From positions 19,720 through 83,719 of the forward strand of contig JAZDLN010000051.1 in the NCBI GenBank assembly GCA_043801965.1: a stretch of DNA of 64,000 bases. The letters run 5' to 3'. How positions within the stretch are numbered: the stretch's first letter is position 1; every line of letters starts with the position of its first letter. The DNA comes from Candidatus Falkowbacteria bacterium (lineage in GTDB: Bacteria > Patescibacteriota > Patescibacteriia > Patescibacteriales > UBA12075). Under the pieces are notes generated by a model. That model searched no databases. It saw nothing but the letters and a program-made list of their open reading frames with translations, and was not told where the DNA came from. The position numbers were made by a program, and so were the translations under genes. Positions 10,623-54,071 of the stretch are shown here, in pieces.

Positions 10623-10690
10623 ACTAAAAAATTCTCACTAATCATTTCTAAAACCAAAAAACTCTCGCAAAAACGCGGGAGTATTTTTTT

Positions 10691-10789
10691 GCCCTCACCC
10701 CGGCTCTCCCGAAGCGTCGGGATCGCCGACCCTCTCCCGCGATTTAAATCGCGGGAGAGGGTGACGAGCGGAGCGAGTCGGGTGAGGGC
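10691..10789. repeat. GC-rich nested palindromic element, gccctcaccc ... ggtgagggc. It overlaps and encodes the 3' end of mnmA.
   Basis: Perfect palindrome ccctctcccgcgatttaaatcgcgggagaggg nested inside outer gccctcaccc / ggtgagggc arms. On the minus strand it reads ATGCCCTCACCCGACTCGCTCCGCTCGTCACCCTCTCCCGCGATTTAA, giving MPSPDSLRSSPSPAI-stop. Confidence 0.7.
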
Positions 10790-12099
10790 ATAATAACCCC
10801 GCCCCCTAAAACCTCGTCCCCGTCATAAAACACGACCGATTGCCCCGGTGTTACCGCCCGCTGCGGTTCCTTGAGTTTAACGTTATATTCCTTAACTCCG
10901 CCCTCAAGCGCCACCGGAACACCCCTCCCCCTCCCACCCCGAATGATGGGCGGGTGCCGGAGCGGAGCGGAGGCGGGAGGGGTATTGGGGAGAGGTAGAG
11001 ACGCGACTTCGCATCCCACCGCCTTATGCCGGTACCGGATCACGGCCTCGCATTTTAAAGGCATCTCCGGCTCGAATCCGGAAACCCAATTGATTTCAGA
11101 GACGATAAAATTATCGCGGAAAAGCGCCGGGTCGTTTGCGTCGGATACGACGTATAAAGTATTGGTTTTATAGTCCGTGCCCGCGACATAATAAGGCCCG
11201 GTGCCGCCAATCTCGACTCCCCGCCTCTGCCCGAGCGTATAAAGCGGCAAACCCTGATGCTGTCCGATTACTTTGCCCGCACCCTCTCGCGCCGCCGGAA
11301 CACCCCTCCCCGTCCCTCCCCTAATTAGGGGAGGGTGCTGAAGCGGAGCGGAGGCAGGAGGGGTGCTAGATGCAAGAGCCACTATCGGCCCGGGCTCCAT
11401 TTTAAGATATTTTTTCAGATACTCGTTATGCTCCAAAATCTTCCCCTCGCTGTTTAAAAAACAAACATCCTGGCTTTCGCCCGTTAAATGCGGCAATCCC
11501 GCCTCCGCCGCTATTTTCCTGATTTCATCCTTAGTGTATTCTCCGAGCGGAAACAGTATTTTTTTCAGTTGATCCTGCGTTAAAGTATATAAAAAATACG
11601 ATTGGTCTTTATTAGTATCTATACCCCTAAACAAAGCACATAATTCATTTTTCATGACATAATGCCCGGTAGAGAGATAATCCGCGCCTAATTCGTCAGC
11701 CACGCGTAAAAGCTCCCCGAATTTAATAAGCCGGTTGCACCTAACGCATGGATTTGGCGTTATCCCCTCTTGATAACTTTTTAAAAAATAATCTATTACC
11801 TCTTTCCGGAATCTGACGGTCAGATTGACCGGATAGAATCTTATGCCGAGCTTCTTAGCCACCTGCCGGGCCGCCGCCTCGCTTTTATCGTTCGGAAACC
11901 CCAGGCGCATGAATATGCCGGTTACGTCATAACCCTCTTTACGCAACAAAAAAGCCGCCGTGGAAGAATCTACCCCCCCGGACAAGGCTACAACAACACG
12001 AGATTTTTTTCCCGCACCGCCAGCTTGCCCCGCATAATCCCGAAGGGATTTGTGCGGGGACGTGGCAACTATTACTTTTTTATTTTTTGCATTTTTCAT
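10744..12099 (-). CDS. mnmA: tRNA-specific 2-thiouridylase MnmA. It carries two in-frame repeat-element insertions and an element-derived C-terminal tail.
   Basis: PP-loop SGGVDSS and motifs CVRCNRLIKF and DYLSTGHY. The 451 aa length exceeds the usual roughly 360 aa because of insertions TPPASAPLQHPPLIRGGTGRGVPAAREG and TPPASAPLRHPPIIRGGRGRGVPVALEG. Confidence 0.9.
   Translation of the reverse strand: MKNAKNKKVIVATSPHKSLRDYAGQAGGAGKKSRVVVALSGGVDSSTAAFLLRKEGYDVTGIFMRLGFPNDKSEAAARQVAKKLGIRFYPVNLTVRFRKEVIDYFLKSYQEGITPNPCVRCNRLIKFGELLRVADELGADYLSTGHYVMKNELCALFRGIDTNKDQSYFLYTLTQDQLKKILFPLGEYTKDEIRKIAAEAGLPHLTGESQDVCFLNSEGKILEHNEYLKKYLKMEPGPIVALASSTPPASAPLQHPPLIRGGTGRGVPAAREGAGKVIGQHQGLPLYTLGQRRGVEIGGTGPYYVAGTDYKTNTLYVVSDANDPALFRDNFIVSEINWVSGFEPEMPLKCEAVIRYRHKAVGCEVASLPLPNTPPASAPLRHPPIIRGGRGRGVPVALEGGVKEYNVKLKEPQRAVTPGQSVVFYDGDEVLGGGVIMPSPDSLRSSPSPAI
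10920..10984. repeat. In-frame nested-palindromic element copy (diverged) inside mnmA.
   Basis: cacccctccccctcccaccccgaatgatgggcgggtgccggagcggagcggaggcgggaggggta. Outer IR cacccctcc / ggaggggt(g/a). Confidence 0.65.
11301..11365. repeat. In-frame nested-palindromic element copy inside mnmA.
   Basis: cacccctccccgtccctcccctaattaggggagggtgctgaagcggagcggaggcaggaggggtg. Inner perfect palindrome ccctcccctaattaggggaggg. Confidence 0.75.
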
Positions 12100-12114
12100 C
12101 TTTAGTAAACTTCA

Positions 12115-12161
12115 CTCTCCCGTGAGCGACGCCAGCCGGGGGAGAGGGGCGGGGGTGAGGG
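12115..12161. repeat. GC-rich palindromic element with GGGGGTGAGGG tail, just upstream of mnmA.
   Basis: ctctcccgtgagcgacgccagccgggggagaggggcgggggtgaggg. Confidence 0.5.
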
Positions 12162-13670: not shown

Positions 13671-13720
13671 GCCCTCACCCTGACCCTCTCCCTGGACTGC
13701 GGTGTCCAGGGCGAGGGAAC
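13671..13720. repeat. GC-rich palindromic element, reverse orientation.
   Basis: gccctcaccctgaccctctccctggactgcggtgtccagggcgagggaac. Confidence 0.5.
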
Positions 13721-13817
13721 TATAGTAAGATGTTGTGGAATTTTCCAATGTCAAAAATATTAAATTAGAAAGAGAGTTGAACAAAACAATGCAAAAAATC
13801 TAAACGTATAAAGTAAT

Positions 13818-13869
13818 CTCCCCTCTCCCGCGGCGCCGCAGCCGCGGGAGAGGGGCTGGGGGTGAGGGC
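13818..13869. repeat. GC-rich palindromic element.
   Basis: ctcccctctcccgcggcgccgcagccgcgggagaggggctgggggtgagggc. Confidence 0.55.
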
Positions 13870-13904
13870 AACAAAAAACAGGCGATGGTTTCGCCTGCGT
13901 GATT

Positions 13905-14861: not shown

Positions 14862-14884
14862 TAATACTAAATACTAATTTTCTA
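14862..14884. repeat. Short copy of the TACTAAATAC element at the stop of the sortase gene.
   Basis: ttaatactaaatactaattttcta overlapping stop TAG (14874-14876). Confidence 0.45.
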
Positions 14885-15539
14885 AAAGCTCCGCGATCAC
14901 GACCAGCCTCTGCGCGGTCGAGTAGATCGGCGTGCAGGTGAACATGGTCAGGGTCGGTTTTTCGGTCGGATTCATAATAGAAAGATCCGTGGGTTCCACT
15001 ACTTTTATTTCTTTGATACGGTAAAAATAATCCTTTTCTTTATATATCACGGAAACAATATCCCCGATAACCAATTTATCAAACAGGAAAAAGGTCAGAT
15101 TGTTGGGCGGCAGATATTTAAAACGATGCCCGGTAATGACGGTGTTGCCCCCTTTATCCGGGGTCGAACTTTCCGGCACGCGCCAGGAGCCGCGGGACAA
15201 GCCGTAATCGGCGGATTTAGCTTCCACGATCGGCGCGTTTACGCCGATCTTGGTGATTATTATCCGGTTCGGGGATACCGCGTACTCGGCTTCGGGTAGC
15301 TTGCTCACGATCTTGGCTGTTTTCTCTTTGACGATAACCTCGTCCTGATGGACGGCCGCCGCCTCCGTGCTCGTACCCGTAACTCCGGCCAGAGACGCCT
15401 CCCTTCTTTGCGTCATCCTGTATTTTACGGAAGGATAGAGCGGCAGGGCGAATATATAAACTATCACGAGGATAGCCAAAAATTCCATTGTTAAAACAAC
15501 CGCCTTTAAGACTTTTCCTTTTATCGCTTTTTTCTCCAT
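14874..15539 (-). CDS. Sortase family transpeptidase.
   Basis: N-terminal TM anchor, catalytic His (VITGHRF) and TLTMFTCTP (TLxTC Cys motif). Immediately downstream of a giant surface protein gene. Confidence 0.8.
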   Translation of the reverse strand: MEKKAIKGKVLKAVVLTMEFLAILVIVYIFALPLYPSVKYRMTQRREASLAGVTGTSTEAAAVHQDEVIVKEKTAKIVSKLPEAEYAVSPNRIIITKIGVNAPIVEAKSADYGLSRGSWRVPESSTPDKGGNTVITGHRFKYLPPNNLTFFLFDKLVIGDIVSVIYKEKDYFYRIKEIKVVEPTDLSIMNPTEKPTLTMFTCTPIYSTAQRLVVIAELLEN

Positions 15540-15557
15540 TTATATTGATCTAAATTA

Positions 15558-18500
15558 TTAATTTTTACCCGCGAAGCTCTTTCTTAACCGGAGAGGCCTG
15601 GTCTTTTTCAGGTTTACAACTTCGGGTATTTCTTCGTTATTGAGCGAGCGTTCCTTGATGGTCAGGATGATCGTTAAAATTACGAAAATCACGGAAAGCG
15701 CGATCAGAAGTTTCATGGCCAACCGGGCCGGAGCCAGATCGATCTTATTGCCGATCCGCCCGGAATTATCCAAAAAAGCAAAATCGTTTTCGCCGGGATA
15801 AAAGGTCTGGTCTAATTCCGTGGCGGTCTCGCCCGCGTATCCGGCGGCTAAAGCCTTTTCTGGTTGGCCGACGATATCGTCCAAAAAGCCTAAGCGGGAA
15901 ATAGCCGGGGCGACCGCGACCGGTTGCGGAACGGCAACTTCCTCACTGCTAAGACCTGCCACTGCCACGGTCTTGATCTCAAGACTGGACCGATCCCGGG
16001 CGGTTTCTGCGGTCCCGGAATTATCGGACTTAACTTCAAATTCGATCAAATATAGTCCCGGTTCGGCGGTCTTATCCGCCTCTACAGTAAAAAATACTTT
16101 CCTGAATTGTCCCGGAACCATATCTCCCAGGTTCCAATTGTTTATTATACCACCCCCATCTAAAAATGTCAATCCATCACCCAAACTTCCGCTCAGAATA
16201 ACGCCTTTAGCCGTTTTTACGCCGTTATTGGTAATAACCGCCTTGTAAGTAACCGTATCTCCGGGATTTGCGTAGTCCGCGCCGCCGGAAAGTCCGATCT
16301 CGAGCAAGGGCCTAAACCCAAACCAGTCCGGGTTCTCCACCTTGATCTTGGTCGAAGCGACCACAGCCACAAAATCATCCTTGGCCGCGTCGTATCCTTC
16401 GACGGTCACTTCGTTTGCGTAAACCCCGCTCCGGATATTGGACGTAATCTCGAGCGAGTAGCCGATACTGACCTCTTCGCGGTCGAGAACCGCGCCGAGC
16501 TCCCAAAGCTCCCGGTTAACCTCGACTTTCCCCTCTTCACCCGATAGAATATCCAGTACCAGTACGTCCTCCATGGGCGTACCGCCTGGATTCCTGATCG
16601 TGATCGTATAATTGACGACGTCGCCCGGACGGACAACATCGGCCGCGTCATTGGTTTTAACGACGACGAGAGCGGGAGATGTATTACCCATCCTGTTATC
16701 GGCGTCGGTTCGGGATGATAAAGAATTGCCCGCGCCGCCGGCGGCGGCCGCATTCCCGCCATCAACGACGACGGTCCCGCCGGCGGAATTATCACCCGGA
16801 TCGCGATCGTTTCCGAAGGATGAAATCGCGACGGTATTATCCGCGTTATGATGCCCCGCCGAAATATCGTCCCTGACCCTGACGGCATAACTTAAACTGC
16901 CCTGCGTATTGGGCGGGAGATCAGAGAGCGGCCAAGCGACAATACCGGCGCCCGCCTCGCTCCAGACGTAATTTTCGTCATAATCGTCGGACAGGGTCAC
17001 TCCGGTCGCCAGACCGTCGCCTTTGTTGCCGAACAGGAAGGTGTAATTTATATAATCCCCCCGCCTGACCGGCCCGGCCGCGTCGTTCGCTTCCGTTACC
17101 CAAAGATCAGGCAGACCGAAAGCCAGGTTGCCCTGCCAATCGCCGAAAACGTTTACCATGGAAAATTCCCAGCTATTGCCCGTAAAATTAGCGTTAATGA
17201 AATTTAAAAGGCTGTTTTGGATATTGATATCGCCGGTCGCGATACTGCCGCCGTCACTATGTAGAATCGAGTTATTGCCGGTCGAGGCGTTTATCTCAAT
17301 ATTATTGGTGGTCGAGGCCAGATTAGTATTACCGACGATCATTTGCGCGTAAGCGGAGTAAAATTCCGGATCGGATAGGATATCGTTATAGATCGTGATC
17401 CCGTATTCGTCCTCTAAGTAATCGTAACCGGCGGGAAGTCCGGTTATAAAGCCGTCCCAATTCCCGAAGATATTTACCCGCGCGAATTTCCAGGCATTGC
17501 CGGTTACGCTGTAGTTTATCAGGTTAAAAACATGCGACTCTACGACGGCCTCTCCGGTAGTGATCTCGCCTCCTCCCTCGGTCGTATTGTCGCCGGTCGA
17601 GGCGTTAATATCTATATTATTAAGAAGATCGGCCGCGTCCGTGTTGGCTAAAATAATACCGGCGGATTCGGCTTCAAGTTCCGGCGTCTGGGCGATAACC
17701 TCTGTCGTCGTCGCTGCTTCATCGGCACTGGTACTGGCGGCGTTACCGGGGCCGGGCAGGATAATATCGCCTTTAAGCTCGCCGAAAATATTAACGACCG
17801 CGAAAAACCAATCATTCCCGGCTACGTTCAGGTTGGCGATATTCACGAGGTCGTTCACGATCTCGATATCGCCGGTTTCGATCCGGCCCTCTCCGGTCGA
17901 GGTGGCGATTATATTATCGCCGGTATTGGCGTCGATAACGATATTATTATCCGTCGAAGCCGAATTATCGTTATTTATCGTCACGTAGCAATCGATAACA
18001 TCGCAGGCGCCGCTTTCTTCGACCGCTGTTTCCTCCCCGTTAAAGCCGGACAGGTCGATCGCGCCCATGACATGGTTGAAAATATTTATAAAATACTCCT
18101 TGCCGGGTCCGAAAAAATTATTATTGATGTAATTCAGGATGATATTGATAATGCCGACGTCGCCGGTCGTGATCAAAGCATCCCCGGACGATGACGCGAT
18201 AGTATTTCCGCCGCTATCACCGTTAAGCAGGACGTCGTTAGTGGTCGTGGCCGCGTTTAAGTTGTCTACCGATGTCGTGCCGCTGGCCGTATCCGGACAT
18301 TCCGCGCCGCAATCGGCTTCCAGGCCGTTCGAGTTAACGATATTTTCGGCAATAGCCTCGATAATCGCTTCGCCCGTCGCTATTGTTGAAGTGCCGGTAT
18401 TATCTTCCGTTCCGTTAATACCGGTCGTATCGGTCGCGTCGTCGACCGCTTCCGCTCCGTCGAGTTCGATAATCTCTATGTTGCCGTTGTTATCCGTCTG

Positions 18501-18746
18501 ATTTCCGTTGTCAGGATCGGCCGGGTCGTCAGCGGCCGCCGCGCTATCCTGCGCATCCGATAAACCGCCGTCGATAATATTTTGATTGATGCTCGACTCC
18601 GTCTCCGTCACTTCGGCATCGCCGGTCGCTATCTCTTCGGCCAAGACCATAATAACATTGTATGAATATAACGCCGAAAAGAACATTACTATAAATACAA
18701 TAATATTTTCTTTTATTTTTAAATTTTCATGGTATTGTCTGGACAT
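15558..18746 (-). CDS. Giant secreted, membrane-anchored repeat protein (1062 aa). It has four tandem roughly 85 aa repeats plus DUF11-like domains, and no canonical LPXTG.
   Basis: Signal peptide. Repeats contain TGDxxIxNxL.NxIN and NIFGxWxG. DUF11-type segments include VRPGDVVNYTITIRNPGG and ANPGDTVTYKAVITNNG. The C-terminus has DLAPAR followed by a TM helix and a positively charged tail. Confidence 0.65.
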   Translation of the reverse strand: MSRQYHENLKIKENIIVFIVMFFSALYSYNVIMVLAEEIATGDAEVTETESSINQNIIDGGLSDAQDSAAAADDPADPDNGNQTDNNGNIEIIELDGAEAVDDATDTTGINGTEDNTGTSTIATGEAIIEAIAENIVNSNGLEADCGAECPDTASGTTSVDNLNAATTTNDVLLNGDSGGNTIASSSGDALITTGDVGIINIILNYINNNFFGPGKEYFINIFNHVMGAIDLSGFNGEETAVEESGACDVIDCYVTINNDNSASTDNNIVIDANTGDNIIATSTGEGRIETGDIEIVNDLVNIANLNVAGNDWFFAVVNIFGELKGDIILPGPGNAASTSADEAATTTEVIAQTPELEAESAGIILANTDAADLLNNIDINASTGDNTTEGGGEITTGEAVVESHVFNLINYSVTGNAWKFARVNIFGNWDGFITGLPAGYDYLEDEYGITIYNDILSDPEFYSAYAQMIVGNTNLASTTNNIEINASTGNNSILHSDGGSIATGDINIQNSLLNFINANFTGNSWEFSMVNVFGDWQGNLAFGLPDLWVTEANDAAGPVRRGDYINYTFLFGNKGDGLATGVTLSDDYDENYVWSEAGAGIVAWPLSDLPPNTQGSLSYAVRVRDDISAGHHNADNTVAISSFGNDRDPGDNSAGGTVVVDGGNAAAAGGAGNSLSSRTDADNRMGNTSPALVVVKTNDAADVVRPGDVVNYTITIRNPGGTPMEDVLVLDILSGEEGKVEVNRELWELGAVLDREEVSIGYSLEITSNIRSGVYANEVTVEGYDAAKDDFVAVVASTKIKVENPDWFGFRPLLEIGLSGGADYANPGDTVTYKAVITNNGVKTAKGVILSGSLGDGLTFLDGGGIINNWNLGDMVPGQFRKVFFTVEADKTAEPGLYLIEFEVKSDNSGTAETARDRSSLEIKTVAVAGLSSEEVAVPQPVAVAPAISRLGFLDDIVGQPEKALAAGYAGETATELDQTFYPGENDFAFLDNSGRIGNKIDLAPARLAMKLLIALSVIFVILTIILTIKERSLNNEEIPEVVNLKKTRPLRLRKSFAGKN

Positions 18747-18828
18747 ATTTTAGTAGGTTAAAAGTAAGGCGAGAAGTAATAATTGATATTGGCATAAAAA
18801 CAAAACGCTCTCTTCAATCAAATAACCA

Positions 18829-18976
18829 CTTTTTCTGTCATCTCGACGACCCGCGGGAGGAGAGATCCATAATGCATTGCATCCGCGCTAAACGTCATTC
18901 CTGCGGACACAATGTATTATGGATCTCTCCCTCCGTCCCGAAACGTCGGGACTCCGGTCGAGATGACAGAAAAAAA
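18829..18976. repeat. MITE-like element with roughly 45 bp imperfect terminal inverted repeats (TTTTCTGTCATCTCGAC ... GTCGAGATGACAGAAAAA).
   Basis: Left arm tttttctgtcatctcgacgacccgcgggaggagagatccataatgcattg. Right arm caatgtattatggatctctccctcc...ggtcgagatgacagaaaaaaa. Related copy at 40811-40914. Confidence 0.6.
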
Positions 18977-19047
18977 TATTATTCAGAAAATTAAAACTTT
19001 AAAGCGTTTAACGGCGATGCTGGCTTACAATCGGAAATCGTCAATCC

Positions 19048-19698
19048 CTATCCCCAGAACCCCAGTATCTTTAAAATTCCCGCCTTGATAGCGCCGATGA
19101 AACCGGACCAGACAGCCGCGATTCCCCGGTTATCATCCGATCGATCGTCTTCCGCGGCGTTGCCGGCATCATCCGCGCAATCGCTTTCTTCGAGTGCGCA
19201 CAGCCCGTTCCCGGCCGGTTCTTCCGGCTCTTCCCAAAGCTCGCCCAAGACCGGCTCAGCAATACCCCTCCCCGTCCCTCCCCTAATTAGGGGAGGGTGC
19301 TGGAGCGAAGCGGAGGCGGGAGGGGTGTCTGAAATTTCCGCCTCCGCTTTATCGCTATCGGCGTTAACCCGGTTCTCTATTTTTAATTGAACGCTGTCTT
19401 CCGTTTCTTTCTCTATCTTTACATCAGTCACCTTTGTTCCGTTTATTTCGGTCTCTATCTCGATCTCTCCGCGCGTTTTCCCCTCGACAACGGCGCCGTT
19501 TTTCGCCGTATTGCCGCCGCTTGAGGCGGATGATTTTATATTATTGGTTATCTTTGCGCCCCCGGAATCGTCATAATAATAAACCTCGTCATATTCGGCC
19601 AGCAAATCATCGAGGTTAAAGGCCCGCGTCCCGGCCGGCAGAAACAGCATCGACGCTATGATAATATAATTAATTTTTTTAAAATATTTTACGGACAT
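19048..19698 (-). CDS. Secreted acidic hypothetical protein containing an in-frame palindromic-element insertion.
   Basis: Signal peptide. Internal DTPPASASLQHPPLIRGGTGRGIAEP segment encoded by the element at 19264-19327. Confidence 0.5.
   Translation of the reverse strand: MSVKYFKKINYIIIASMLFLPAGTRAFNLDDLLAEYDEVYYYDDSGGAKITNNIKSSASSGGNTAKNGAVVEGKTRGEIEIETEINGTKVTDVKIEKETEDSVQLKIENRVNADSDKAEAEISDTPPASASLQHPPLIRGGTGRGIAEPVLGELWEEPEEPAGNGLCALEESDCADDAGNAAEDDRSDDNRGIAAVWSGFIGAIKAGILKILGFWG
19264..19327. repeat. In-frame nested-palindromic element copy.
   Basis: tacccctccccgtccctcccctaattaggggagggtgctggagcgaagcggaggcgggaggggtg. Confidence 0.75.
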
Positions 19699-19904: not shown

Positions 19905-19953
19905 TTTCCAGACAATCCTGGCGCGCTTATTTACTAATTTGAACGGCGGGCGG

Positions 19954-19980
19954 GTAGAGACGAGTATGCCTCGTCTCTAC
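19954..19980. repeat. GTAGAGACG-armed palindrome.
   Basis: gtagagacgagtatgcctcgtctctac. Confidence 0.6.
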
Positions 19981-20013
19981 CGCGCCACGCCCTTTCCATT
20001 CTTCCGTTCAACC

Positions 20014-21324: not shown

Positions 21325-23931
21325 TTAAACAGCCTGCGTTTTGCGCCCTAAATATAAACCTATGGTCCCGAGCGATATCATGATCGCGGAGAGCGCGATT
21401 AACTCGTCAAAACCGAACCCGGTTTCCGGTAAAGTCGTACGCACCTCCAGATCAGCCGTGGTCCTTACCGGTTCATGGTTATCCGCCCGCGCTTCCGCCC
21501 GATTGACGTAAACGCCCGTGGCCGCGCTTCGGTCGATATTTGCCGAAATGATGATTTCCCGGCTCGCTCCGGGAGCCAGATCGCCGAGCATGAACGTTTT
21601 AGAGCTCGTGCCGTTATCGACAAAAGAAAGTCCGGAGGGCAGGGTATCGGTCATGACCGCGTTAAAAGCCGTTAAATTCCCCGTGTTCCTGACCGTAACC
21701 GTGAATTTAATATTCTTGTCCCCGGGTCTGGCGAAAACACGGTCGATCTTCTTGGTTATGGAAAGTATCGGTTCACCCTCTTCCCCCCTGACGCAAGTAT
21801 CACTCGATAAAGTATTTACGGAAATTTCCGGCCCGAAGATAATACTCGAATTATTGACGGATACCGGTCGGACGTAATAAGTTTTCCCGATATCAAGACC
21901 GATGATCGATTCTTCGTGGCCGGTAACTTCTTCGCTGTCCTGCGTGGTCGAAAACGCGTAACCGAAATTAGGAGCCGTGCTCGTGCCGATATCAGAGTGG
22001 GAAACCGTATCGTAAATAAGGCGTGAAGCGGCCGGTTTTGACGTTAACCAGGAAAATATCAGGAAGTCACAGCCGGAATTTACATTTTGAAAATTCTTTA
22101 TTTCGAATATTGGTATCCCGCCGCCGCCATTGCCGCCTCCGTTGCCGCCGCCTCCGCCATTGCTCGCGGGCTGTTTATAATTTACGAAATCAACGGTTTT
22201 GTCTTCGCTTTTATGTTCCTTTTTATCTGTTTTTATGTTGACGATCGCCATGCCGTCAGCGGGATCGACGTAACTCCAGCCGGAAGGAAGAGTCTCGGTA
22301 ATAGTGTAATCGCCTTCCGGCAGTCCGCCGAAAACGGTACAACCGTTTACCGTTGATTGGGTGGTCGTGGCCACAGTCCCGCCCGAGAGCGTGAACTGCC
22401 AGACGGCCGTGGTTGTGGCGCGATCGCCGGTCGTCGAAGCCGAGCCGTCCGCGTCTTCGTATTTGCATACCTTGATCGACCCCTCCGGTTCCCGGAAGTT
22501 TACGAACTTTACGGTTTTGTCTTCGCATTCTTCAAGGTTCACGGTTATCTTGCCATCGGCCGGATCGACGAAACTCCAGCCGAAAAGAAGAGTTTCGGTA
22601 ATAGTATAATTTCCGGCCGGAAGCTCATCGAAGGTGGCACAGCCGTCAATGGTCGATATTGCGGTCGTGGCCGTGCCGTCATGGATAATATATTCCCAGA
22701 TACTGTCGGATAATATCCGGTCGTCAGTGGTCGAGGCCAGTCCGTCTTTATCTTCGTATTTGCATACTTTGATCGAGCCGGTTTTATCGCCGCCGCCTCC
22801 GCCGCCGTTGCCTCCGCCGCCTCCGCCGCCATTACCCTCCTCTTTATAATTAACGAAATTGACGGTTTTATTTTCGCCTTTTAAGAGTTTCGCGGCCATA
22901 ATTCCGTTAGCGGGTTCGACGTAACTCCAGCCGGAAAGAAGAGTTTCGGTAATAGTATAATCCCCGGCAGTAAGCCCATCGAAAGTGGCGCAGCCATCCA
23001 CGGTAGATCTTACGGTCGTGGCCGTATCGCCGTTAAGGGTATATTCCCAGACGTTATCGGCAAGCGTCCGGTCGTCCGTAGTCGAGGCCGAGCCGTCCGC
23101 GTCTTTGTATTTGCAGACTTTGATCGAACCTTTCGGCGCCGGAGGAACAGGTTCTTCCTTGTGATTCACGAAAGCGATGAACTTATTCTCCGCGTTACCG
23201 AGATTAACCGTCCGTATGCCGTTATCGGGAACAAGAAAAGACCAACCGGAGAGCAGGGTTTCCGTAACAGTATAATTGCCCGCTTCCAGTCCGGTAAAAG
23301 CGGTACAGCCGTTTTCGGTCGTCTGTATTTTATCCGCGCCTCCGGAAAGGGTGTATTCCCAGATCGAATCGGAAAGGACGCGGTCGTAAGTGGATAAAGC
23401 GATCCCGTCCGCGTCTTCATATTTGCAGACAGTGATAGATGAAGAGATCGTCTCGGCCTGACGATTACCGAAATGCAGACTGCTTATGTTCTGTCCGGCC
23501 TGCAGATTAACCACGTGTTTCGTGGGGTCGTCCTGGTTCGGGTAAACTATATTATTCGGAAAAGTCTCTGTCCAGCCGGGTTTCTGGGTTTCGGCCACGA
23601 TATAATTACCGGCCGCGAGGTTATCGAAAATATAGCAGCCGAAATCGTTGGTTACGGTCGTAGTGGAAACATCCCCGCTTAAAACGATCTCCCAGCCGGG
23701 GAGGATATCCGCGGTACTGGTGCCGGTTTCATCCCAGAAACCGTCGCCGTCAGCGTCATTCCATTTACAGCCGGAAATCGAGCCTAATGGCGGCTCCGCG
23801 GCTTTCGCTTCCTCCGGAACGGCAAAAAACACGCCTACGAAAGACATGTTGAAGATAAGTACGCTTAAAAGGAAAACATTGAAGAATCTCCGGATTCTTC
23901 TGGTTTTTTTACTGAGGCTTGGGATCTGCAT
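21325..23931 (-). CDS. Cell-wall-anchored (LPETG) pilin/adhesin-like protein with four Cna-B/prealbumin-like repeats, poly-Gly linkers and a C-terminal DUF11 domain.
   Basis: Repeats SIKVCKYEDADG ... GDYTITETLLSGWSY. The C-terminus ends LPETGFGFDELIALSAIMISLGTIGLYLGRKTQAV (motif, TM, basic tail). Confidence 0.75.
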   Translation of the reverse strand: MQIPSLSKKTRRIRRFFNVFLLSVLIFNMSFVGVFFAVPEEAKAAEPPLGSISGCKWNDADGDGFWDETGTSTADILPGWEIVLSGDVSTTTVTNDFGCYIFDNLAAGNYIVAETQKPGWTETFPNNIVYPNQDDPTKHVVNLQAGQNISSLHFGNRQAETISSSITVCKYEDADGIALSTYDRVLSDSIWEYTLSGGADKIQTTENGCTAFTGLEAGNYTVTETLLSGWSFLVPDNGIRTVNLGNAENKFIAFVNHKEEPVPPAPKGSIKVCKYKDADGSASTTDDRTLADNVWEYTLNGDTATTVRSTVDGCATFDGLTAGDYTITETLLSGWSYVEPANGIMAAKLLKGENKTVNFVNYKEEGNGGGGGGGNGGGGGGDKTGSIKVCKYEDKDGLASTTDDRILSDSIWEYIIHDGTATTAISTIDGCATFDELPAGNYTITETLLFGWSFVDPADGKITVNLEECEDKTVKFVNFREPEGSIKVCKYEDADGSASTTGDRATTTAVWQFTLSGGTVATTTQSTVNGCTVFGGLPEGDYTITETLPSGWSYVDPADGMAIVNIKTDKKEHKSEDKTVDFVNYKQPASNGGGGGNGGGNGGGGIPIFEIKNFQNVNSGCDFLIFSWLTSKPAASRLIYDTVSHSDIGTSTAPNFGYAFSTTQDSEEVTGHEESIIGLDIGKTYYVRPVSVNNSSIIFGPEISVNTLSSDTCVRGEEGEPILSITKKIDRVFARPGDKNIKFTVTVRNTGNLTAFNAVMTDTLPSGLSFVDNGTSSKTFMLGDLAPGASREIIISANIDRSAATGVYVNRAEARADNHEPVRTTADLEVRTTLPETGFGFDELIALSAIMISLGTIGLYLGRKTQAV

Positions 23932-24919: not shown

Positions 24920-27900
24920 TTACGCGTTATACGCCTTGCGCTTTAAGAGCGCGCTCGCTCCAGTAAGTCCTCCGACCATCATAATGAGAGCCATAAACTC
25001 GAAGACGCTCCATCCTGTTTCGGCCAATACTTCTATTTCCCTAACCTCCAGGTCTGCCATGGCCTCGAGCTGTTTATGGTTATCGGATCTTATCGTGGCG
25101 GTATTGACGTATATTTTTTCCGCGGCATCGTCTATGACGTTCGCTAAATAAGTGATTTCCCCCGTTTCGCCGGGCAGAAGGTCTCCGATGGCCCATTCCC
25201 GGGTGGTCGAAGCGGTATCGGCGTAAACGATCCCCTCGGGAAGAATATCCTTGATTATGACGTTAAAAGCGGTTAAATTCCCCGTATTGGCGTAATTGAT
25301 CACGTACTTGAAATTCTTATCCCCCGGATTGTAGAATGATTTCTCGTCCGGAATGACTTTCGTGATCGAAAGTATCGGGTCCCCTTCTTCGCCTTTGACC
25401 TCGACGCAGGCGTCGGTCTTGTATTTGACGGTTTTCTCGGCTTTATCCGATCCTTCTTCGGCCTTGGCCGTAAAGGAATATTCGGTATAAGGCTTTAAGC
25501 CGCCGATCGTGGTCGAATGCAGGGTGCTTTCCGTGGTCGTGTCGGTCGAGGTGGCGTCTTTGATATCGTCGGAATCGAGGCCGTAAACGACCCAGCTGGT
25601 CACGGTCTTGTTAGTGCGCCATTCTATTTTGGCCGTATTTTCGTCAATGCACTTAGCTTCAATTTCCATGATATCGAGGAAAACATGGCCTCCGCCGCCG
25701 CCTCCGCCGCCTGGCGTAGTGCAGTCGTTCTTACAGCTGTCATTATTATTGCTATTAGCGTCATCGCACTGTTCTCCCCTGTTCGTCTGGACGATGCCGT
25801 CGCCGCAATAAGGACCGCCGCCGCCCTCAGTCGTGCAGGTGGCGGAGCAGCCGTCGCCGGAAACGTTATTGCCATCATCGCATTGCTCTCCAGGGGTGTT
25901 TCCCGATATACCATCGCCGCACTTGGGCAAAGTGCAATCGTTATGGCAGCCGTCGGCATTATCGGTGTTTCCGTCGTCGCATTCTTCGTCCAAGACGTTA
26001 ACTGTGCCGTCGCCGCAACGTGGTTCCGGGGTCTGATAATTAAGGAAAATAAGCGGTTCAAGGCTTACCGCGCCGACCGTAACCTGATGCGCGCCGCCGT
26101 AAGGATAGGAGTTTACCCAGTTTCCGCCCACAAGCGGCATTTCGGCAACCGTGTAGTCGCCATAAACCAGGCCGTCTAAAGTAACACAGGCTGTTTCGCC
26201 GTTAGTGGCCGCGTCTACATTCGTTAAATCCGGCTTAGTAACCAGGAAATTCCAGGTTAAGGGCGTATCGGTCGCGTGCTCGTAAATTCCGAGCAGGCCG
26301 TTATCGTAATATTTGCAGATGGTTAATGATCCGGTTTCGATCGCGCAATTAGCGTCACAGCCATCGCCATCGATGCTATTATGATCGTCGCATTGTTCGC
26401 CGGTATCGATGTTGCCATCGCCGCAGTAGGGTACGTTTTCCAAGACGCAATCAGCGCTACAGGTTTGGTGCGGCCCGACGCCGGTCAAGCCGTCACATTG
26501 CTCCCAGCTTTGGTTTATAAGGCCGTCTCCGCAAATAGGTCCGTCGTCCTCGTTTTGGCAGTTAGCGTCGCAACCGTCGCCATCAATGTTGTTATGATCG
26601 TCGCATTGTTCGCCGGAATCTATGTTGCCGTCGCCACAATAGGGCACGTAATTCGTTTCGCAGTTATTGTCGCAGGTGTAATGTTCTGGAACGCCTGCAT
26701 TGGTCGGATCGTTAAAATCGCAGATCTCGGTGCCGTTTTTTATGCCATCGCCACAATAAGGGATATAGGTCAAATCGCAGCTTAAATTACAAATATTATG
26801 CTCTGGAACGCCGGCATTGGTCGGATCGTTAAAATCGCAGATCTCGGTGCCGTTTTGAACACCATCGCCGCAGAAAGGACCGGTTAAGGTTATTTCGCTG
26901 CAGATACCGGAGCAATAGGTGCAGTTTCCGCCGTAAGCCGGGACACACTGCCGGCCGTTATTTACGCCGTCGTCACAAACTTCGCCGTTATCCGGATTGC
27001 CGTCGCCGCAATAAGGCACGTATGTCGTTTCGCAGTTATTGTTGCAGGTGTAATGTTCCGGAACGCCGGCATGCGTCGGATCGTTAAAATCGCAGATCTC
27101 GGTGCCGTTTTGAACGCCATCGCCACAGAAAGGACCGGTCAGGGTCATCGGTTGGCAAATATTTGAACAATAAGTACAGCTTCCCCCATAAGCCGGGACG
27201 CATTGTACTCCGTTTTGTCCGTTATCGTCGCAAATTTCGTCGGTATCGGTAATACCGTCGCCGCATTCAGGCTCCGTGCAGTTATTGCGGCAATCGTCAT
27301 TATCGATGTCATTGCCGTCGTCGCATTCTTCGCTTACCTGATTGACGGTTCCGTCTCCGCAGACCGGAGGCGCGCAGAAAACTTCAGTGGTTTCTTCTTC
27401 GCAAAGAGCGGCCGGCAATTCGTTGGCGGTTACGCAAGCCTTATTTAAAAGAGTCGATCCGCAGGCCGTATCGGTTTTAACTGAAGTTAAAATCTCTATG
27501 ACCCTCGTTTCACCCGGATGCAAAACGTCATAAACCCATTCGTTGTTGCCGCTGGTCGGAACAGGGTTTGAACTCGTAAAAACGGTCTGACTGCTATAAT
27601 ATTCCTTAAGTATGACACCGCTCCCCGTACAATCGGCCGTACCGATGTTTTCCAGGGTCAGGACGTACGATAAATTTCCCCCCGGAGATACCGGATCCGG
27701 ATTGTCTGTTTTAGTAAGCTTTAATTTACACTCCGGGCCGCCGCAAAAAGTCAGATGGCTGATATCGTAAGCTCCCTTAACAACCGTTCCGGATGTTCCT
27801 CCTGGGAATTCCGTATAATTAGTAGCCGCCTTCCTTAAAACTTTAGCTACCGCCGGATTTGAGGTCCAGCTGGCGGAGGCGGTGTTTCCGGTAACAGCGG

Positions 27901-28772: not shown

Positions 28773-28940
28773 TATTTTGTTGATATGGCAAGCATGCATA
28801 TGCCCACCGTCAGAAGGAAATAACCCAAGTCTTCGAATTTTTTCAGTTTAGGCCATACGCCTATGCCGAATCCCGGCAGAATGAACGATATTCCTATCCA
28901 ATGACACAGACCGAGTTGTTTAAAAAACAAAAGGCCCATA
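28773..28940 (-). CDS. Unlisted small membrane protein (55 aa), MGLLFFKQLGLCHWIGISFILPGFGIGVWPKLKKFEDLGYFLLTVGICMLAISTK.
   Basis: Hand translation of the minus strand. AAGGAGGG is 3 nt upstream of the ATG. Two hydrophobic helices. Followed by the terminator at 28686-28730. Coordinates approximate (+/-2). Confidence 0.4.
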
Positions 28941-29076
28941 TACCCTCCTTCTTATATTTTTTATGTAAAGCCACAGCTTATATTTACTTATACGCTTAAA
29001 AAAGGATTTTGTTACACTAAATATTTTTTTTCTCGCCGAATTTCCCACAAAAAAACCCTCTGTGGAGACGCCCACG

Positions 29077-29104
29077 GTAGAGACGAGGCATGCCTCGTCT
29101 CTAC
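29077..29104. repeat. GTAGAGACG-armed perfect 28 bp palindrome.
   Basis: gtagagacgaggcatgcctcgtctctac. Confidence 0.65.
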
Positions 29105-29137
29105 GGGGGGTATTTAGGTGTTTGGTTTCCGCCCGCC

Positions 29138-29165
29138 GTAGAGACGCGATTAATCGCGTCTCTAC
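29138..29165. repeat. GTAGAGACG-armed perfect 28 bp palindrome with a different centre.
   Basis: gtagagacgcgattaatcgcgtctctac. Confidence 0.65.
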
Positions 29166-29207
29166 GCCGCGACATCTCCGAAAATAAAAAACCATGTTAG
29201 CTAGTCC

Positions 29208-29267
29208 TTCCCCCCTCCCGGCGGGGATGCCTGCCTGCCGGCAGGCAGGGACAGGAGGGGGTCAGAA
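29208..29267. repeat. GC-rich nested palindromic element.
   Basis: ccttcccccctcccggcggggatgcctgcctgccggcaggcagggacaggagggggtcag. Confidence 0.5.
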
Positions 29268-29276
29268 GTCCGGCAA

Positions 29277-29316
29277 CAAAAAAAACACCTCCGGAAATCC
29301 CGGAGGTGTTTTTAAA
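29277..29316 (-). terminator. Rho-independent terminator of the 29329-33417 gene (bidirectional hairpin).
   Basis: cacctccgg-aaat-cccggaggtg with flanking A-run and T-run. Confidence 0.6.
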
Positions 29317-42395: not shown

Positions 42396-42465
42396 CAGAC
42401 GACGGAATGAATAATAAAATTTACATTCTATTTTCTGTTCACTGCTTTCTAAAATCCAATAATAT

Positions 42466-42876: not shown

Positions 42877-42879
42877 ATA

Positions 42880-53023: not shown

Positions 53024-54071
53024 TTTTCAAATACTCCCCAAACACACCCTCAATCTCCTTAAACGTATTAACGCGCACCAATTCTCTTCTTAACTCTTTC
53101 GCCCCGGATAGCCCGGCCGCGTAAGCGCAAAGCTGGCCGCGCATCTCTACTATCCCCCGCCCGCCTTTAAGGCCCTCGGCAAGCCGGGCGTGTTCTAAGG
53201 CGATTTTAAATACCGCCCGGGGAGAGCGCGCAAGGCTCTGTCCGGTGCGCACGGCCTTGAATATCCACGGCCGCCCCAAAGCGCCGCGCGCGATCCCGAC
53301 TCCGTCGGCTCCGGTTTCGGCTAATAATTCCTCAACACAACTTTTGACGTCAGCTCCCCTCGCCCGCGGCGCCGCGACACCCCTCCCCGTCCCTCCCCTA
53401 ATTAGGGGAGGGTGGCGAAGCGGAGCGGAGCTGGGAGGGGTAACGGTAACGCCAACCCCTCCATTCGCCAGAATCACGCCCCCGAAATGATCGCGGGCTT
53501 TTTTTATTATTCCTGTGTCGATCGTCCCGGCAAAACCCTGCTTTAGGGTCCGGCCGTGGATCATGATAGCGGAAATATTCAAGTCTTTAATAAATTCCAA
53601 AAAATCGATCAAACCGGTTCTGTTGACCCTGGTCCGGGTTTTGATCGAAACCGGCAAATTCGTGTTATCGATCGTGCTTTCGATTATCTTCCGCGCCAGC
53701 GGCATATTATCCATAAGTACCGCTCCCGCGCCCTGTTTGGCGACTTTCTTTACCGGACAGCCGAAGTTAATATCGATCCCGTCCGGACCGATCTTATCCG
53801 AAATTAGGCGCGCGGCCGCCGCGAAGTGATCCGGTTTCGCACCGAAAAGCTGGACTACGTACGGACGTTCTACCGGATCGAACTTAAGCATCCCTAAAGT
53901 TTTAACCGGATCATAAACCAGGGCAGTCGCGCTGGCCATCTCGGAATAAACGACGTCCGCGCCGAATTTTTTGCAAATCCGGCGCATGGCGCTGTCCGTA
54001 TAGCCCGCCATCGGCGCCAGGGCGTAGATCGGCCGTCCCCGTTTTTTTAATTTTTCCCAAAAATTACGCAT
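53016..54071 (-). CDS. dus: tRNA-dihydrouridine synthase with an in-frame repeat-element insertion.
   Basis: LAPMAGYTDSAMRRI ... DINFGCP ... GADGVGIARGALGRPWIF. Insertion TPPSSAPLRHPPLIRGGTGRGVAAPRARG splits the conserved ANGG / ADV...TGADGV region. Confidence 0.85.
   Translation of the reverse strand: MRNFWEKLKKRGRPIYALAPMAGYTDSAMRRICKKFGADVVYSEMASATALVYDPVKTLGMLKFDPVERPYVVQLFGAKPDHFAAAARLISDKIGPDGIDINFGCPVKKVAKQGAGAVLMDNMPLARKIIESTIDNTNLPVSIKTRTRVNRTGLIDFLEFIKDLNISAIMIHGRTLKQGFAGTIDTGIIKKARDHFGGVILANGGVGVTVTPPSSAPLRHPPLIRGGTGRGVAAPRARGADVKSCVEELLAETGADGVGIARGALGRPWIFKAVRTGQSLARSPRAVFKIALEHARLAEGLKGGRGIVEMRGQLCAYAAGLSGAKELRRELVRVNTFKEIEGVFGEYLKSI
53388..53441. repeat. In-frame nested-palindromic element copy inside dus.
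   Basis: cacccctccccgtccctcccctaattaggggagggtggcgaagcggagcggagctgggaggggt. Confidence 0.75.

What the first reader, a model, noticed from the sequence alone, without database searches (positions are those of the whole stretch)
10691..12161. mnmA is a repeat hotspot: two internal in-frame elements, GC-palindromes on both flanks, and the last 14 codons plus stop of MnmA encoded by a palindromic element
- The element at 10691-10789 (gccctcaccc...ccctctcccgcgatttaaatcgcgggagaggg...ggtgagggc) overlaps the gene's 3' end.
- After the canonical MnmA C-terminal LGGGVIM, the protein continues PSPDSLRSSPSPAI and stops at the TAA inside the palindrome's TTTAAA centre.
- So a repeat insertion appears to have replaced or extended the native C-terminus, as RPEs do.
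- A further copy of the same family (12115-12161) sits just upstream of the start.
- One 1.4 kb gene therefore carries four elements from two families.
Basis: seen in the sequence. Interest (0 to 1): 0.6.

Follow-up and report, generated by a model that had tools for sequence, protein, structure and literature searches.

The report
Palindromic repeats colonising a CPR mnmA gene
In a Candidatus Falkowbacteria (CPR/Patescibacteria) genome, the tRNA-modification gene mnmA carries five short GC-rich palindromic repeat elements, three read in-frame as loops and one that supplies the last 14 codons and the stop; the behaviour matches the Rickettsia palindromic elements, and I found no earlier description of it in this bacterial group.

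Summary

- **The gene.** mnmA (12099..10744, minus strand, 451 aa) is identical to an NCBI Candidatus Falkowbacteria MnmA.
- **The C-terminal tail.** A 99-nt nested palindrome (10691-10789) begins at the last base of the codon after LGGGVI. It supplies PSPDSLRSSPSPAI and the TAA at its symmetry axis.
- **Orthologs lack the tail.** The two closest orthologs (77% and 70% identity) end GGIIS and GGIIGIDD and have no such element there. Of 117 orthologs, 85 have 1-2 residues after GGGxI; the window's 15 is the longest.
- **Internal elements.** The two internal elements belong to a 64-nt family (centre CCCTCCCCTAATTAGGGGAGGG) that also sits in-frame in dus and a 216-aa ORF. In relatives it sits in secA, ligA, lgt and hydrogenase genes.
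- **Filled and empty sites.** These exist for dus and for four mnmA sites.
There is a fifth, N-terminal hairpin insertion (11985-12062). The flank element and the internal family also share modules, so they form one superfamily.
- **Structure.** AlphaFold and PDB alignments place every element-derived segment outside the folded core.

The mobilisation mechanism is unknown: no clear target duplication and no transposase in the window. Verdict: supported; a new member of a known kind (RPE-like); moderately interesting.

The parts
10744..12099 (-). mnmA coding sequence (451 aa, stop included): tRNA 2-thiouridine(34) synthase carrying three in-frame element-derived segments and an element-derived tail.
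   Evidence: ORF listing. Pfam tRNA_Me_trans HUP, PRC-barrel and C-terminal barrel domains. 100% identical to an NCBI Candidatus Falkowbacteria MnmA.
10691..10789 (.). Element B1: a 99-nt nested palindrome. It has outer arms GCCCTCACCC/GGGTGAGGGC, two side modules, and a central perfect 34-nt palindrome (10729-10762) with an ATTTAAAT centre.
   Evidence: RNA fold -76.4 kcal/mol, z = -10.2. Absent at the 3' end of L001 and L042. One side module is 25/26 identical to a module of a PPLIRGG-type element in L028.
10744..10788 (-). Element-encoded tail of MnmA: 14 codons (PSPDSLRSSPSPAI, 10788..10747) plus the stop TAA (10746..10744) at the palindrome axis.
   Evidence: Tail-length distribution in 117 orthologs. 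pLDDT below 50 for residues 445-451.
10661..10682 (.). Native bidirectional terminator-like hairpin (ACTCCCGCGTTTTTGCGAGAGT with T/A tracts), shared with the convergent gene. It is conserved in L042. B1 sits between it and the mnmA body.
   Evidence: (sixth fold).
10896..11004 (-). Element A2 (core 10920-10983 plus GC-rich flanks), translated in-frame as ASLPLPNTPPASAPLRHPPIIRGGRGRGVPVALEGG. It is the older copy: it is shared with L001, and the window copy has a decayed centre.
   Evidence: Gap between PDB-aligned blocks 358 and 406. pLDDT 37-55 for residues 371-400.
11275..11376 (-). Element A1 (core 11301-11364, centre CCCTCCCCTAATTAGGGGAGGG), translated in-frame as ...SSTPPASAPLQHPPLIRGGTGRGVPAAREGAG. 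L001 and L042 carry a different short palindrome at this site.
   Evidence: Gap between PDB blocks 241 and 275. pLDDT 44-67 for residues 241-270.
11985..12062 (-). N element: a 78-nt in-frame insertion (hairpin CCCCGCACAAATCCC-TTCG-GGGATTATGCGGGG at 12028-12059, then GCAAGCTGGCGG, then a second copy of the KKxxVVVA codons). It encodes TSPHKSLRDYAGQAGGAGKKSRVVVA.
   Evidence: Absent in L001. A single copy in the window, 0 expected. Near-identical DNA in five distant mnmA orthologs.
12104..12161 (-). Element B2: a half-element (CCCTCACCC + CCCCTCTCCC..GGGAGAG hairpin + AAGTTTACT) lying between the upstream gene's terminator T-tract and the mnmA start codon. It makes up most of the mnmA 5' leader.
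   Evidence: 58-nt insertion relative to L001. 83% identical over 69 nt to 13812-13878. Weak fold, z = +0.4.
13671..13869 (.). B4 (13671-13717, + orientation) and B3 (13820-13869, - orientation): two B-type units in inverted orientation, flanking about 100 nt of AT-rich DNA upstream of the CAP-domain gene. This pair completes the local cluster.
   Evidence: Weak whole-length hairpin hits.
19263..19326 (-). Third copy of the A family, in-frame (TPPASASLQHPPLIRGGTGRGI) in a 216-aa hypothetical ORF.
53378..53441 (-). Fourth copy of the A family, in-frame (TPPSSAPLRHPPLIRGGTGRGV) in dus (tRNA-dihydrouridine synthase).
   Evidence: Filled and empty orthologous sites.

Best explanation
mnmA and its flanks have been colonised by short, GC-rich, nested-palindromic repeat elements of one modular superfamily.

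**Architecture (shown).** Each element has a C-rich outer arm and an optional ~18-26-nt module. Then come a C-rich inner arm, an AT-rich 6-8-nt palindromic centre and a G-rich inner arm, followed by a G-rich outer arm.

**Spread (shown).** Copies are dispersed in this genome and in other Patescibacteria, in both coding and non-coding DNA.

**Survival in genes (shown, cause inferred).**
- Inside genes, copies are seen only in a stop-free phase. The TAATTA centre puts TAA or TAG in the other two phases.
- Where an empty site allows measurement, the length is a multiple of three.
- They sit at positions outside the protein's folded core. Selection is the inferred cause of this pattern.
- There they are translated as extra loops. 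Translation itself is inferred.

**The 3' end (inferred).** One element (B1) lies between the ORF body and the conserved terminator, and the native stop has been lost. The ribosome therefore reads 14 element codons and stops at the TAA in the element's ATTTAAAT centre, in the one phase of B1 that carries that central stop.

**Mobilisation (not shown).** How the elements move is unknown. No unambiguous target-site duplication and no transposase were found. Possible routes are hairpin or single-strand transposition of the IS200/IS605-RAYT type, or copy-in by recombination.
For: **Anatomy and significance.**

**Tail absent in relatives.**
- The tail and B1 are absent in the closest orthologs.
- All 116 other orthologs lack the tail sequence, and 85 of the 117 have only 1-2 residues after GGGxI.

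**Dispersal and mobility.**
- A-family copies lie in mnmA (two copies), dus and a hypothetical ORF. Identity between copies is 82-94% over 66-83 nt, although the host genes are unrelated.
- dus shows a clean empty site in L126 against 57-nt (L127) and 63-nt (window) inserts.
- B2, the N element and A1 are absent in L001, while A2 is shared.
- The same core lies in 40 loci of the species-representative genomes. In Falkowbacteria and other Patescibacteria many copies sit inside long ORFs, in both orientations and always in the PPLIRGG phase.
- Host genes there include secA, ligA, lgt, an FeFe hydrogenase, a MiaB-like enzyme and FemAB.

**Phase constraint.** Only one phase of A1 is open. B1 has its central stop in exactly the phase that mnmA uses.

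**Structural tolerance.**
- The AlphaFold2 core has pLDDT above 90. Low confidence is confined to 1-32, 242-275, 368-404 and 437-451.
- The PDB MnmA alignment breaks at the same places.

**Modularity.** The B1 module GGCTCTCCCGAAGCGTCGGGATCGCC is 25/26 identical to the module of a TAATTA-centred element in L028.

**Same site, different element.** L042 has a different palindrome immediately upstream of the same conserved terminator.
Against: - No RNA or protein data: translation of the inserts and of the tail is inferred only from open frames.
- Removing B1 in silico does not recreate a nearby stop, so the exact event cannot be reconstructed.
- No clear target-site duplication was seen at the dus, B2 or A sites.
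- No transposase was found among 34 window ORFs scanned, so 'mobile element' rests on distribution alone.
- Only 64 kb of the genome was available, with four A copies, so orientation and frame statistics within this genome are weak.
- No second credible case of an ORF ending inside such an element was found.
Confidence: 0.8

Rival explanations
1. The palindromes are mainly functional RNA or DNA structures kept in place by selection, such as terminators, mRNA stabilisers, RNase III sites or regulatory hairpins. They would not be selfish mobile DNA, and the coding overlap at the mnmA 3' end would be a by-product of a 3'-end structure.
For: - B-type units sit directly next to terminator T/A tracts.
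- B1 is extraordinarily stable.
- The N hairpin is 90% conserved at the DNA level across lineages whose adjacent mnmA DNA is about 60% identical.
- A different element occupies the same pre-terminator position in L042.
Against: - Near-identical copies lie inside unrelated coding regions.
- Close relatives differ in presence or absence of copies.
- On the mnmA strand, B1 is followed by A7, not a U-tract, and the native terminator is retained 8 nt downstream.
- No Rfam family matches.
- Variation in the N hairpin breaks pairs rather than compensating for them.
Confidence: 0.12
2. The element-derived segments are not part of the mature protein. They would be removed from the mRNA or the polypeptide (intron-like or intein-like), or skipped by the ribosome as the GC-rich byp elements of yeast mitochondria are.
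For: No direct evidence. The only support is that strong hairpins inside coding RNA would be awkward to translate.
Against: - Every in-gene copy is in a stop-free phase. Measured inserts are 57, 63 and 78 nt, all multiples of three. An excised or bypassed element would not need either property.
- No intron or ribozyme family matches.
- At 19-37 aa, the inserts are far too small for inteins.
- Orthologous copies keep their peptide sequence across species. L020/L023 and L002/L026 show this.
Confidence: 0.04
3. The extended C-terminus and the inserts are assembly, binning or annotation artefacts at GC-rich palindromes.
For: The source is a metagenome-assembled genome, and palindromes can cause chimeric assemblies.
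Against: - A2 and the dus copy recur at the same positions in an independent assembly, Logan SRR22388213 (L001 and L127).
- The element family is present in many MAGs from different studies.
- The NCBI protein is the same 451 aa.
- The reading frame is continuous across all inserts.
Confidence: 0.02

Closest known systems
Rickettsia palindromic elements (RPEs; Ogata et al. 2000, as cited in PMC1166351 and PMC3184786)
   Same: - Both are short dispersed palindromic repeats that invade coding and non-coding DNA.
- In-gene copies are in-frame, add a peptide segment to otherwise conserved housekeeping proteins, and persist in orthologs.
- No associated transposase is known.
- R. felis has 728 RPEs, 85 of them inside ORFs (PMC1166351).
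   Different: - A different phylum (Patescibacteria/CPR rather than Alphaproteobacteria).
- The CPR elements are shorter: a 64-nt core and 99 nt for B1, against about 105-146 nt.
- They are strongly GC-rich, with nested arms and an AT-rich centre that contains stop codons.
- They have a modular build.
- Sequence homology to RPE families was not tested.
MITE-like and other small bacterial repeats fused to ORF ends (BRE of Bordetella, BOX/RUP/SPRITE of pneumococcus, enterobacterial repeats; review PMC3184786, section 15)
   Same: [quoted passage not shown] B1 does the latter. The CPR elements have terminal inverted arms, a small size, no transposase and a stable RNA fold.
   Different: No target-site duplication could be shown and no partner IS was identified. 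The density in essential genes (secA, ligA, mnmA, dus) is closer to the RPE situation than to typical MITEs.
REP elements mobilised by RAYT / IS200-IS605-type Y1 transposases (PMC3733652)
   Same: Both are GC-rich hairpin repeats with no target duplication, often sitting next to terminators. A separate family in this window (GTAGAGACG...CGTCTCTAC at 19953-19981 and 29077-29166) has the GTAG-type end.
   Different: The A and B elements do not start with GTAG or CGTC. They are larger and nested, and they occur inside genes. No RAYT or TnpA gene is in the window.
Coding palindromes and GC clusters of organelle genomes (Nematomorpha mitochondria, PMC6649704; yeast mitochondrial GC clusters and byp elements, from my own knowledge)
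   Same: Palindromic DNA lies within protein-coding genes, and both arms are translated. Because the A-family axis falls on a codon boundary, both orientations give PPLIRGG.
   Different: Those are organellar, often much longer or translationally bypassed. Here the stop-free phase and multiple-of-three lengths argue for ordinary translation.

Membership tests
RPE-like in-frame palindromic repeats (kind, not the Rickettsia families themselves) | Dispersed multi-copy short palindromic repeat. | tested here: met
   Four A copies in 64 kb, and 40 loci in other genomes. Chance expectation is 0.
RPE-like in-frame palindromic repeats (kind, not the Rickettsia families themselves) | Copies lie inside conserved protein genes, in-frame, without disrupting the ORF. 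| tested here: met
   mnmA (two copies), dus and a hypothetical ORF. Elsewhere: secA, ligA, lgt, hydrogenase. Measured inserts are 57, 63 and 78 nt.
RPE-like in-frame palindromic repeats (kind, not the Rickettsia families themselves) | Orthologs without the insert exist (filled and empty sites). | tested here: met
   dus in L126 against L127 and the window. mnmA in L001 and L042 against the window. Protein alignments.
RPE-like in-frame palindromic repeats (kind, not the Rickettsia families themselves) | Inserts lie at structurally permissive, surface positions. | tested here: met
   AlphaFold2 low-pLDDT segments coincide with the inserts. The PDB alignment breaks at the same places. This is a model, not an experimental structure.
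Rickettsia RPE families proper | Sequence homology to RPE consensus sequences. | not testable with these tools
   No RPE library was available. Rfam gave no match. Composition and host phylum differ, so membership is not claimed.
MITE | Terminal inverted repeats. | tested here: met
   B1 has GCCCTCACCC/GGGTGAGGGC. The A family has ACCCCTCCC/GGGAGGGGT.
MITE | Target-site duplication flanking the element. | tested here: inconclusive
   None is recognisable at the dus empty and filled sites or at B2, but flank divergence of about 20% limits resolution. The N element is flanked by an unusually long duplication of about 24-27 nt.
MITE | A cognate transposase or IS with the same ends in the genome. 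| tested here: not met
   No transposase domain in 34 window ORFs. Only 64 kb was examined, so absence from the whole genome is not shown.
REP/RAYT | A GTAG or CGTC tetranucleotide at the element's 5' end. | tested here: not met
   A and B start ACCCCTCC and GCCCTCACCC. A different family in the window (GTAGAGACG...) does carry it.
Intrinsic (Rho-independent) terminator | A GC-rich hairpin followed directly by a U-tract on the transcribed strand. | tested here: not met
   On the mnmA strand B1 is followed by AAAAAAA. The scan did not call B1, but it did call the hairpin at 10661-10682.
MnmA (tRNA 2-thiouridine(34) synthase) | PP-loop SGGxDS motif plus the three MnmA domains. | tested here: met
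   Pfam PF03054, PF20259 and PF20258. Invariant S40 G41 G42 D44 S45. PDB MnmA hits at E about 1e-68.

The most novel reading that the evidence does not exclude
The A/B elements would be an undescribed, CPR-wide superfamily of modular nested palindromes whose symmetry makes them readable when inserted in genes. The axis falls on a codon boundary, so some variants (the short forms and the 19-kb and dus copies) give the same stop-free PPLIRGG phase in either orientation; copy A1 itself has a stop in the reverse orientation.

In addition, the N-terminal hairpin of mnmA would be a site-specific homing element. It targets the codons just upstream of the PP-loop motif and creates a 24-40-nt target duplication. 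No characterised bacterial transposition mechanism that I know of produces that.
Probability: 0.3. Interest if true: 0.7.

Novelty: new member of a known kind. Interest (0 to 1): 0.55.

Why it matters
CPR/Patescibacteria have tiny genomes that are usually described as streamlined. Here, selfish palindromic DNA sits inside essential genes (mnmA, dus, and in relatives secA, ligA, lgt). That shows repeat invasion of coding sequence is not peculiar to Rickettsia, and it helps explain why orthologous protein lengths vary so much in this group (MnmA runs from 339 to 505 aa).

It has three practical consequences:
- **Annotation.** Some protein ends and 'hypothetical' ORFs are repeat-derived.
- **Homology and structure prediction.** The inserted segments are modelled with low confidence.
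- **Markers.** The elements give presence/absence markers for population genomics.

The mnmA 3' end is a concrete case of a repeat supplying a new C-terminus and stop codon to a conserved enzyme.

Tried and rejected
1. **N peptide in other protein families.**
   - A 51-aa query gave one fragment only.
   - The exhaustive HMMER search with the 32-aa N-terminus returned only a eukaryotic repeat protein, a false positive.
   - Site-specificity of the N element therefore remains untested beyond the 125 loci then held.
2. **Viral-contig scans** for the N and B1 cores found nothing.
3. **More of the source contig.** Exact look-ups of window-end genes and of P0001 and P0003 were not on record.
4. **B-type units elsewhere.** A regex for them (CCCTCACCC..CCCTCTCCC..GGGAGAGGG) in 19 other Patescibacteria loci found none.
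5. **A second ORF ending at an element.** The 139-aa ORF in L028 looks like Arg-rich nonsense and was rejected as a gene.
6. **Known RNA families.** Only chance-level microRNA and sRNA hits.
7. **Transposases.** None in 34 window ORFs.
8. **The metagenome scan for mnmA relatives** gave only one close relative (L042); the rest were 42% identical or less.
9. **Literature.** No description of such elements in CPR was found. That library is not exhaustive.
10. **Native stop codon.** Deleting B1 in silico did not reconstruct it, under several boundary choices.
Full report
**1. The gene and the organism**

The longest ORF in the region is 12099..10744 on the minus strand (451 aa).
- It has the three MnmA Pfam domains and the invariant PP-loop motif SGGVDS.
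- It matches solved MnmA structures at E about 1e-68.
- It is 100% identical over its full length to an NCBI protein named MnmA from a Candidatus Falkowbacteria MAG, on a 106-kb contig.

The window is therefore from a CPR/Patescibacteria genome. Most genes are on the minus strand and are housekeeping genes: rpsB, tsf, gap, tgt, cysS, dus and glycosyltransferases.

**2. Checking the observation**

Element B1:
- It spans exactly 10691-10789. GCCCTCACCC occurs at 10691-10700 (+) and 10780-10789 (-), giving 4 matches in the window against 0.04 expected.
- These arms enclose a perfect 34-nt palindrome at 10729-10762.
- On the gene strand the sequence reads GGG GTT ATT ATG | CCC TCA CCC GAC TCG CTC CGC TCG TCA CCC TCT CCC GCG ATT TAA. 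The last base of the Met codon, the 14 codons PSPDSLRSSPSPAI and the stop all lie in the element. The TAA (10746-10744) straddles the symmetry axis.
- As RNA the element folds into a three-way structure of -76.4 kcal/mol. Shuffles give -39.3 +/- 3.6, z = -10.2.

The internal elements:
- Their cores are 11301-11364 and 10920-10983. They are 86% identical over 83 nt.
- Further copies lie at 19263-19326 and 53378-53441.
- The centre CCCTCCCCTAATTAGGGGAGGG occurs exactly three times, with none expected.

The upstream element at 12104-12161 is also real. It is related to 13812-13878 at 83% over 69 nt.

**3.

- **A fifth element.** Aligning the window with its closest relative shows a 78-nt in-frame insertion at 11985-12062 that encodes TSPHKSLRDYAGQAGGAGKKSRVVVA. 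Its core is a hairpin with a UUCG loop at 12028-12059. The relative is L001, a 2-kb contig from an independent assembly with 77% protein identity and the same upstream CAP-domain gene.
- **One superfamily, not two families.**
  - Read on the plus strand, B1 is GCCCTCACCC-[CGGCTCTCCCGAAGCGTCGGGATCGCCG]-inner palindrome-[GACGAGCGGAGCGAGTC]-GGGTGAGGGC.
  - The first bracketed module is 25/26 identical to the module of a TAATTA-centred element in Falkowbacteria RIFOXYA2_FULL_47_19 (L028).
  - The second module resembles the GCTGAAGCGGAGCGGAGGC module of the internal family.

All these elements share one plan: a C-rich outer arm, an optional module and a C-rich inner arm, then an AT-rich palindromic centre (TAATTA, ATTTAAAT, or AAGCTT in L042) and the matching G-rich arms.

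**4. Is the C-terminus element-derived?**

- P0002/L001 ends GGIIS-TAA. P0003/L042 (70% identity) ends GGIIGIDD-TGA.
- Among 117 orthologs, 85 have only 1-2 residues after the GGGxI motif. The window's 15 is the longest, and none shares the tail sequence.
- More distant orthologs inspected at the DNA level also stop within a few codons, with no palindrome overlapping the stop.
- In L042 the intergenic region holds a different A-like palindrome (centre CCCCTCCCCAAGCTTGGGGAGGGG). It lies immediately upstream of the same conserved hairpin, ACTCCCGCGTTTTCGCGAGAG plus T-tract, that follows B1 in the window.

The slot between the mnmA stop and the shared bidirectional terminator is therefore occupied repeatedly by different elements. 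In the window lineage the ORF has become fused to the occupant.

Deleting B1 in silico does not recreate a nearby stop. The native stop was lost, either during insertion or by a later deletion. This step is inferred and cannot be reconstructed from the data.

On the mnmA strand B1 is followed by A7, not a U-tract, and the terminator scan does not call it. I do not regard it as the terminator.

**5. Evidence that the elements are dispersed, mobile-type DNA**

- All four A copies in the window lie inside ORFs, in the same phase. The peptide is TPP(A/S)SA(P/S)L(Q/R)HPP(L/I)IRGG(T/R)GRG.
- The host genes are unrelated, yet the copies are 82-94% identical over 66-83 nt.
- For dus there is a clean empty site in a RIFOXY-type Falkowbacteria contig (L126). 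It faces a 57-nt insert in L127 and a 63-nt insert in the window, which has an extra GTTACC duplication. Most Dus orthologs lack any insert there, and some carry other inserts in the same loop.
- Relative to L001, the window has gained B2, the N element and A1. A2 is shared and its centre has decayed in the window. L001 in turn has two insertions after GHYV that the window lacks, one of them a 30-nt palindrome.
- A scan of one genome per species for the 20-nt centre found 40 loci. About 10 are in Falkowbacteria RIFOXYC2_FULL_47_12 and 4 in RIFOXYA2_FULL_47_19. Others are in further Patescibacteria and a few in MAGs labelled Gammaproteobacteria.
- Many copies sit inside long ORFs, in both orientations and always in the PPLIRGG phase.
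- Hosts include secA, NAD-dependent DNA ligase, lgt, an FeFe hydrogenase, a MiaB-like enzyme, FemAB and radical-SAM proteins.
- Orthologous copies persist between species (L020/L023 and L002/L026).

**6. Why the copies are tolerated**

- Six-frame translation shows that only one phase of copy A1 is open. The TAATTA centre places TAA or TAG in the other two phases.
- The palindrome axis falls on a codon boundary, so both orientations encode PPLIRGG.
- B1 has one fully open phase and one phase that stays open until a TGA in the outer arm at its far end. mnmA enters in the third phase, which carries the central TAA.
- The AlphaFold2 model was built from a 117-sequence alignment (mean pLDDT 84, pTM 0.83). 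Its core has pLDDT above 90. Low confidence is confined to residues 1-32, 242-275, 368-404 and 437-451, which are exactly the N, A1, A2 and tail segments.
- The alignment to solved MnmA structures breaks into blocks 31-241, 275-358 and 406-436.
- CPR MnmA orthologs range from 339 to 505 aa (median 365), with different inserts at the same few loops.

The 'hotspot' therefore probably reflects permissive sites plus a high element load. A targeted mechanism is not needed to explain it.

**7. The N element is unexplained**

- Its 44-nt core is 90% identical on average (minimum 84%) between the window, L042 and four orthologs with only about 50% protein identity. The first 180 nt after the PP-loop codons average 60%.
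- It always follows GCN-ATG-TCC. It is always followed by a lineage-specific second copy of the preceding ~8 codons (KKxxVxVAMS ... KKxRxxVAMSGG).
- One ortholog has two tandem copies. L042 has a third, upstream pseudo-start copy. L001 has neither the element nor the duplication.
- Variation in the hairpin breaks pairs rather than compensating for them.
- Either it is a site-specific element that creates a long target duplication, or it is an old insertion under strong selection at the nucleotide level. Attempts to learn whether it occurs in other genes failed.

**8. Mechanism and limits**

- No transposase domain occurs in 34 window ORFs.
- No clear target duplication is visible at the A or B sites.
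- No Rfam family matches.
- B-type ends abut terminator T/A tracts in three of four cases.
- A hairpin-based or single-strand mechanism, or recombinational copying, are possibilities only.
- Translation of the inserts is inferred from phase, from lengths of 57, 63 and 78 nt, and from conservation. It has not been observed.

**9. Comparison with known systems and novelty**

- The behaviour matches Rickettsia palindromic elements, which invade coding and non-coding regions. R. felis has 728 RPEs, 85 of them in ORFs (PMC1166351).
- It also matches the small repeats reviewed by Delihas, which fuse in-frame inside genes or extend their 3' ends (PMC3184786, section 15).
- The differences are the phylum, the GC-rich nested and modular build, and the stop-bearing AT centre.
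- I found no description of such elements in CPR/Patescibacteria, but that library is not exhaustive.

I classify the finding as a new member of a known kind. The N element is a possible new variant.

**10. Verdict**

- Interest is 0.55.

Noticed in passing
window 11985-12062 (hairpin 12028-12059); L042 2881-3110; L122-L125: An N-terminal hairpin insertion in mnmA (SPHKSLRDSAGQAGG). It is about 90% conserved at the DNA level in orthologs with only about 50% protein identity. It always sits after GCN-ATG-TCC and is flanked by a lineage-specific duplication of about 24-27 nt of the preceding codons. One ortholog has it in tandem, and L042 has three copies of the N-terminal segment.
   Followed up: partly
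window 19953-19981, 29071-29110, 29134-29169: A separate palindrome family, (G)GTAGAGACG...CGTCTCTAC(C), with a GTAG-type end like REP elements. Two copies lie in an intergenic element cluster at 28920-29290, where the 91-aa ORF is probably spurious. The family also occurs next to A- and B-type elements in L028.
   Followed up: no
window 29230-29249: A perfect 20-nt palindrome, CCTGCCTGCCGGCAGGCAGG, nested in CCCCCTCCC...GGGAGGGGG arms. Related peptide signatures (ADRQ, AGRQ) appear as inserts in other CPR MnmA orthologs in alignment A1.
   Followed up: no
window 18821-18983 and 40813-40912: Two copies of another inverted-repeat element. The outer arms are TTTTTTGTCATCTCGA(C) and its complement. 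The inner arms are GGGAGGAGAGATCCATAATGC and its complement. It looks MITE-like, at about 100-165 nt.
   Followed up: no
window 13671-13869: Two B-type units in inverted orientation enclose about 100 nt of AT-rich DNA with a promoter-like site, upstream of the CAP-domain gene. This may be a composite MITE-like unit of about 199 nt.
   Followed up: partly
window 42462-42876 (-): Bacterial RNase P RNA (class A, 206.7 bits) spans 415 nt for a 367-position model. The overlapping 105-aa ORF at 42618-42935 is therefore spurious. A GC palindrome (43218-43243) lies just upstream.
   Followed up: no
L003, L008, L012, L025 (MAG binchicken_co129_838), L031, L041: MAGs labelled Gammaproteobacteria carry the same PPLIRGG-centred element with the GAGCGCAGCGAAGGC module, including in-frame copies in secA (1002 aa) and a MiaB-like gene (487 aa). 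This means either cross-phylum spread or mislabelled bins.
   Followed up: partly
L001 1100-1190: The closest relative's mnmA has two insertions after GHYV that the window lacks. One is a 30-nt palindrome, GAAGCTAAGCTTC...GAAGCTTAGCT. Other CPR orthologs carry large unrelated inserts at this same site.
   Followed up: partly
window 53016-54071 and alignment A4: The Dus loop after ANGGV carries different inserts in different lineages (P0126, P0133). P0125 keeps GC-rich flanking codons but lacks the 57-63-nt core, which suggests nested insertions.
   Followed up: partly
window 15558-18746, 21325-23931, 24920-28522, 29329-33417: Four very large minus-strand ORFs (868-1362 aa) have internal tandem repeats of about 300-350 nt and GC-rich Gly/Ala-type runs. 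They are probably surface proteins and lie next to a sortase gene (14874-15539).
   Followed up: no
whole window: Nearly all genes are on the minus strand and cumulative GC skew falls monotonically. ARAGORN found no tRNA gene in the 64 kb.
   Followed up: no
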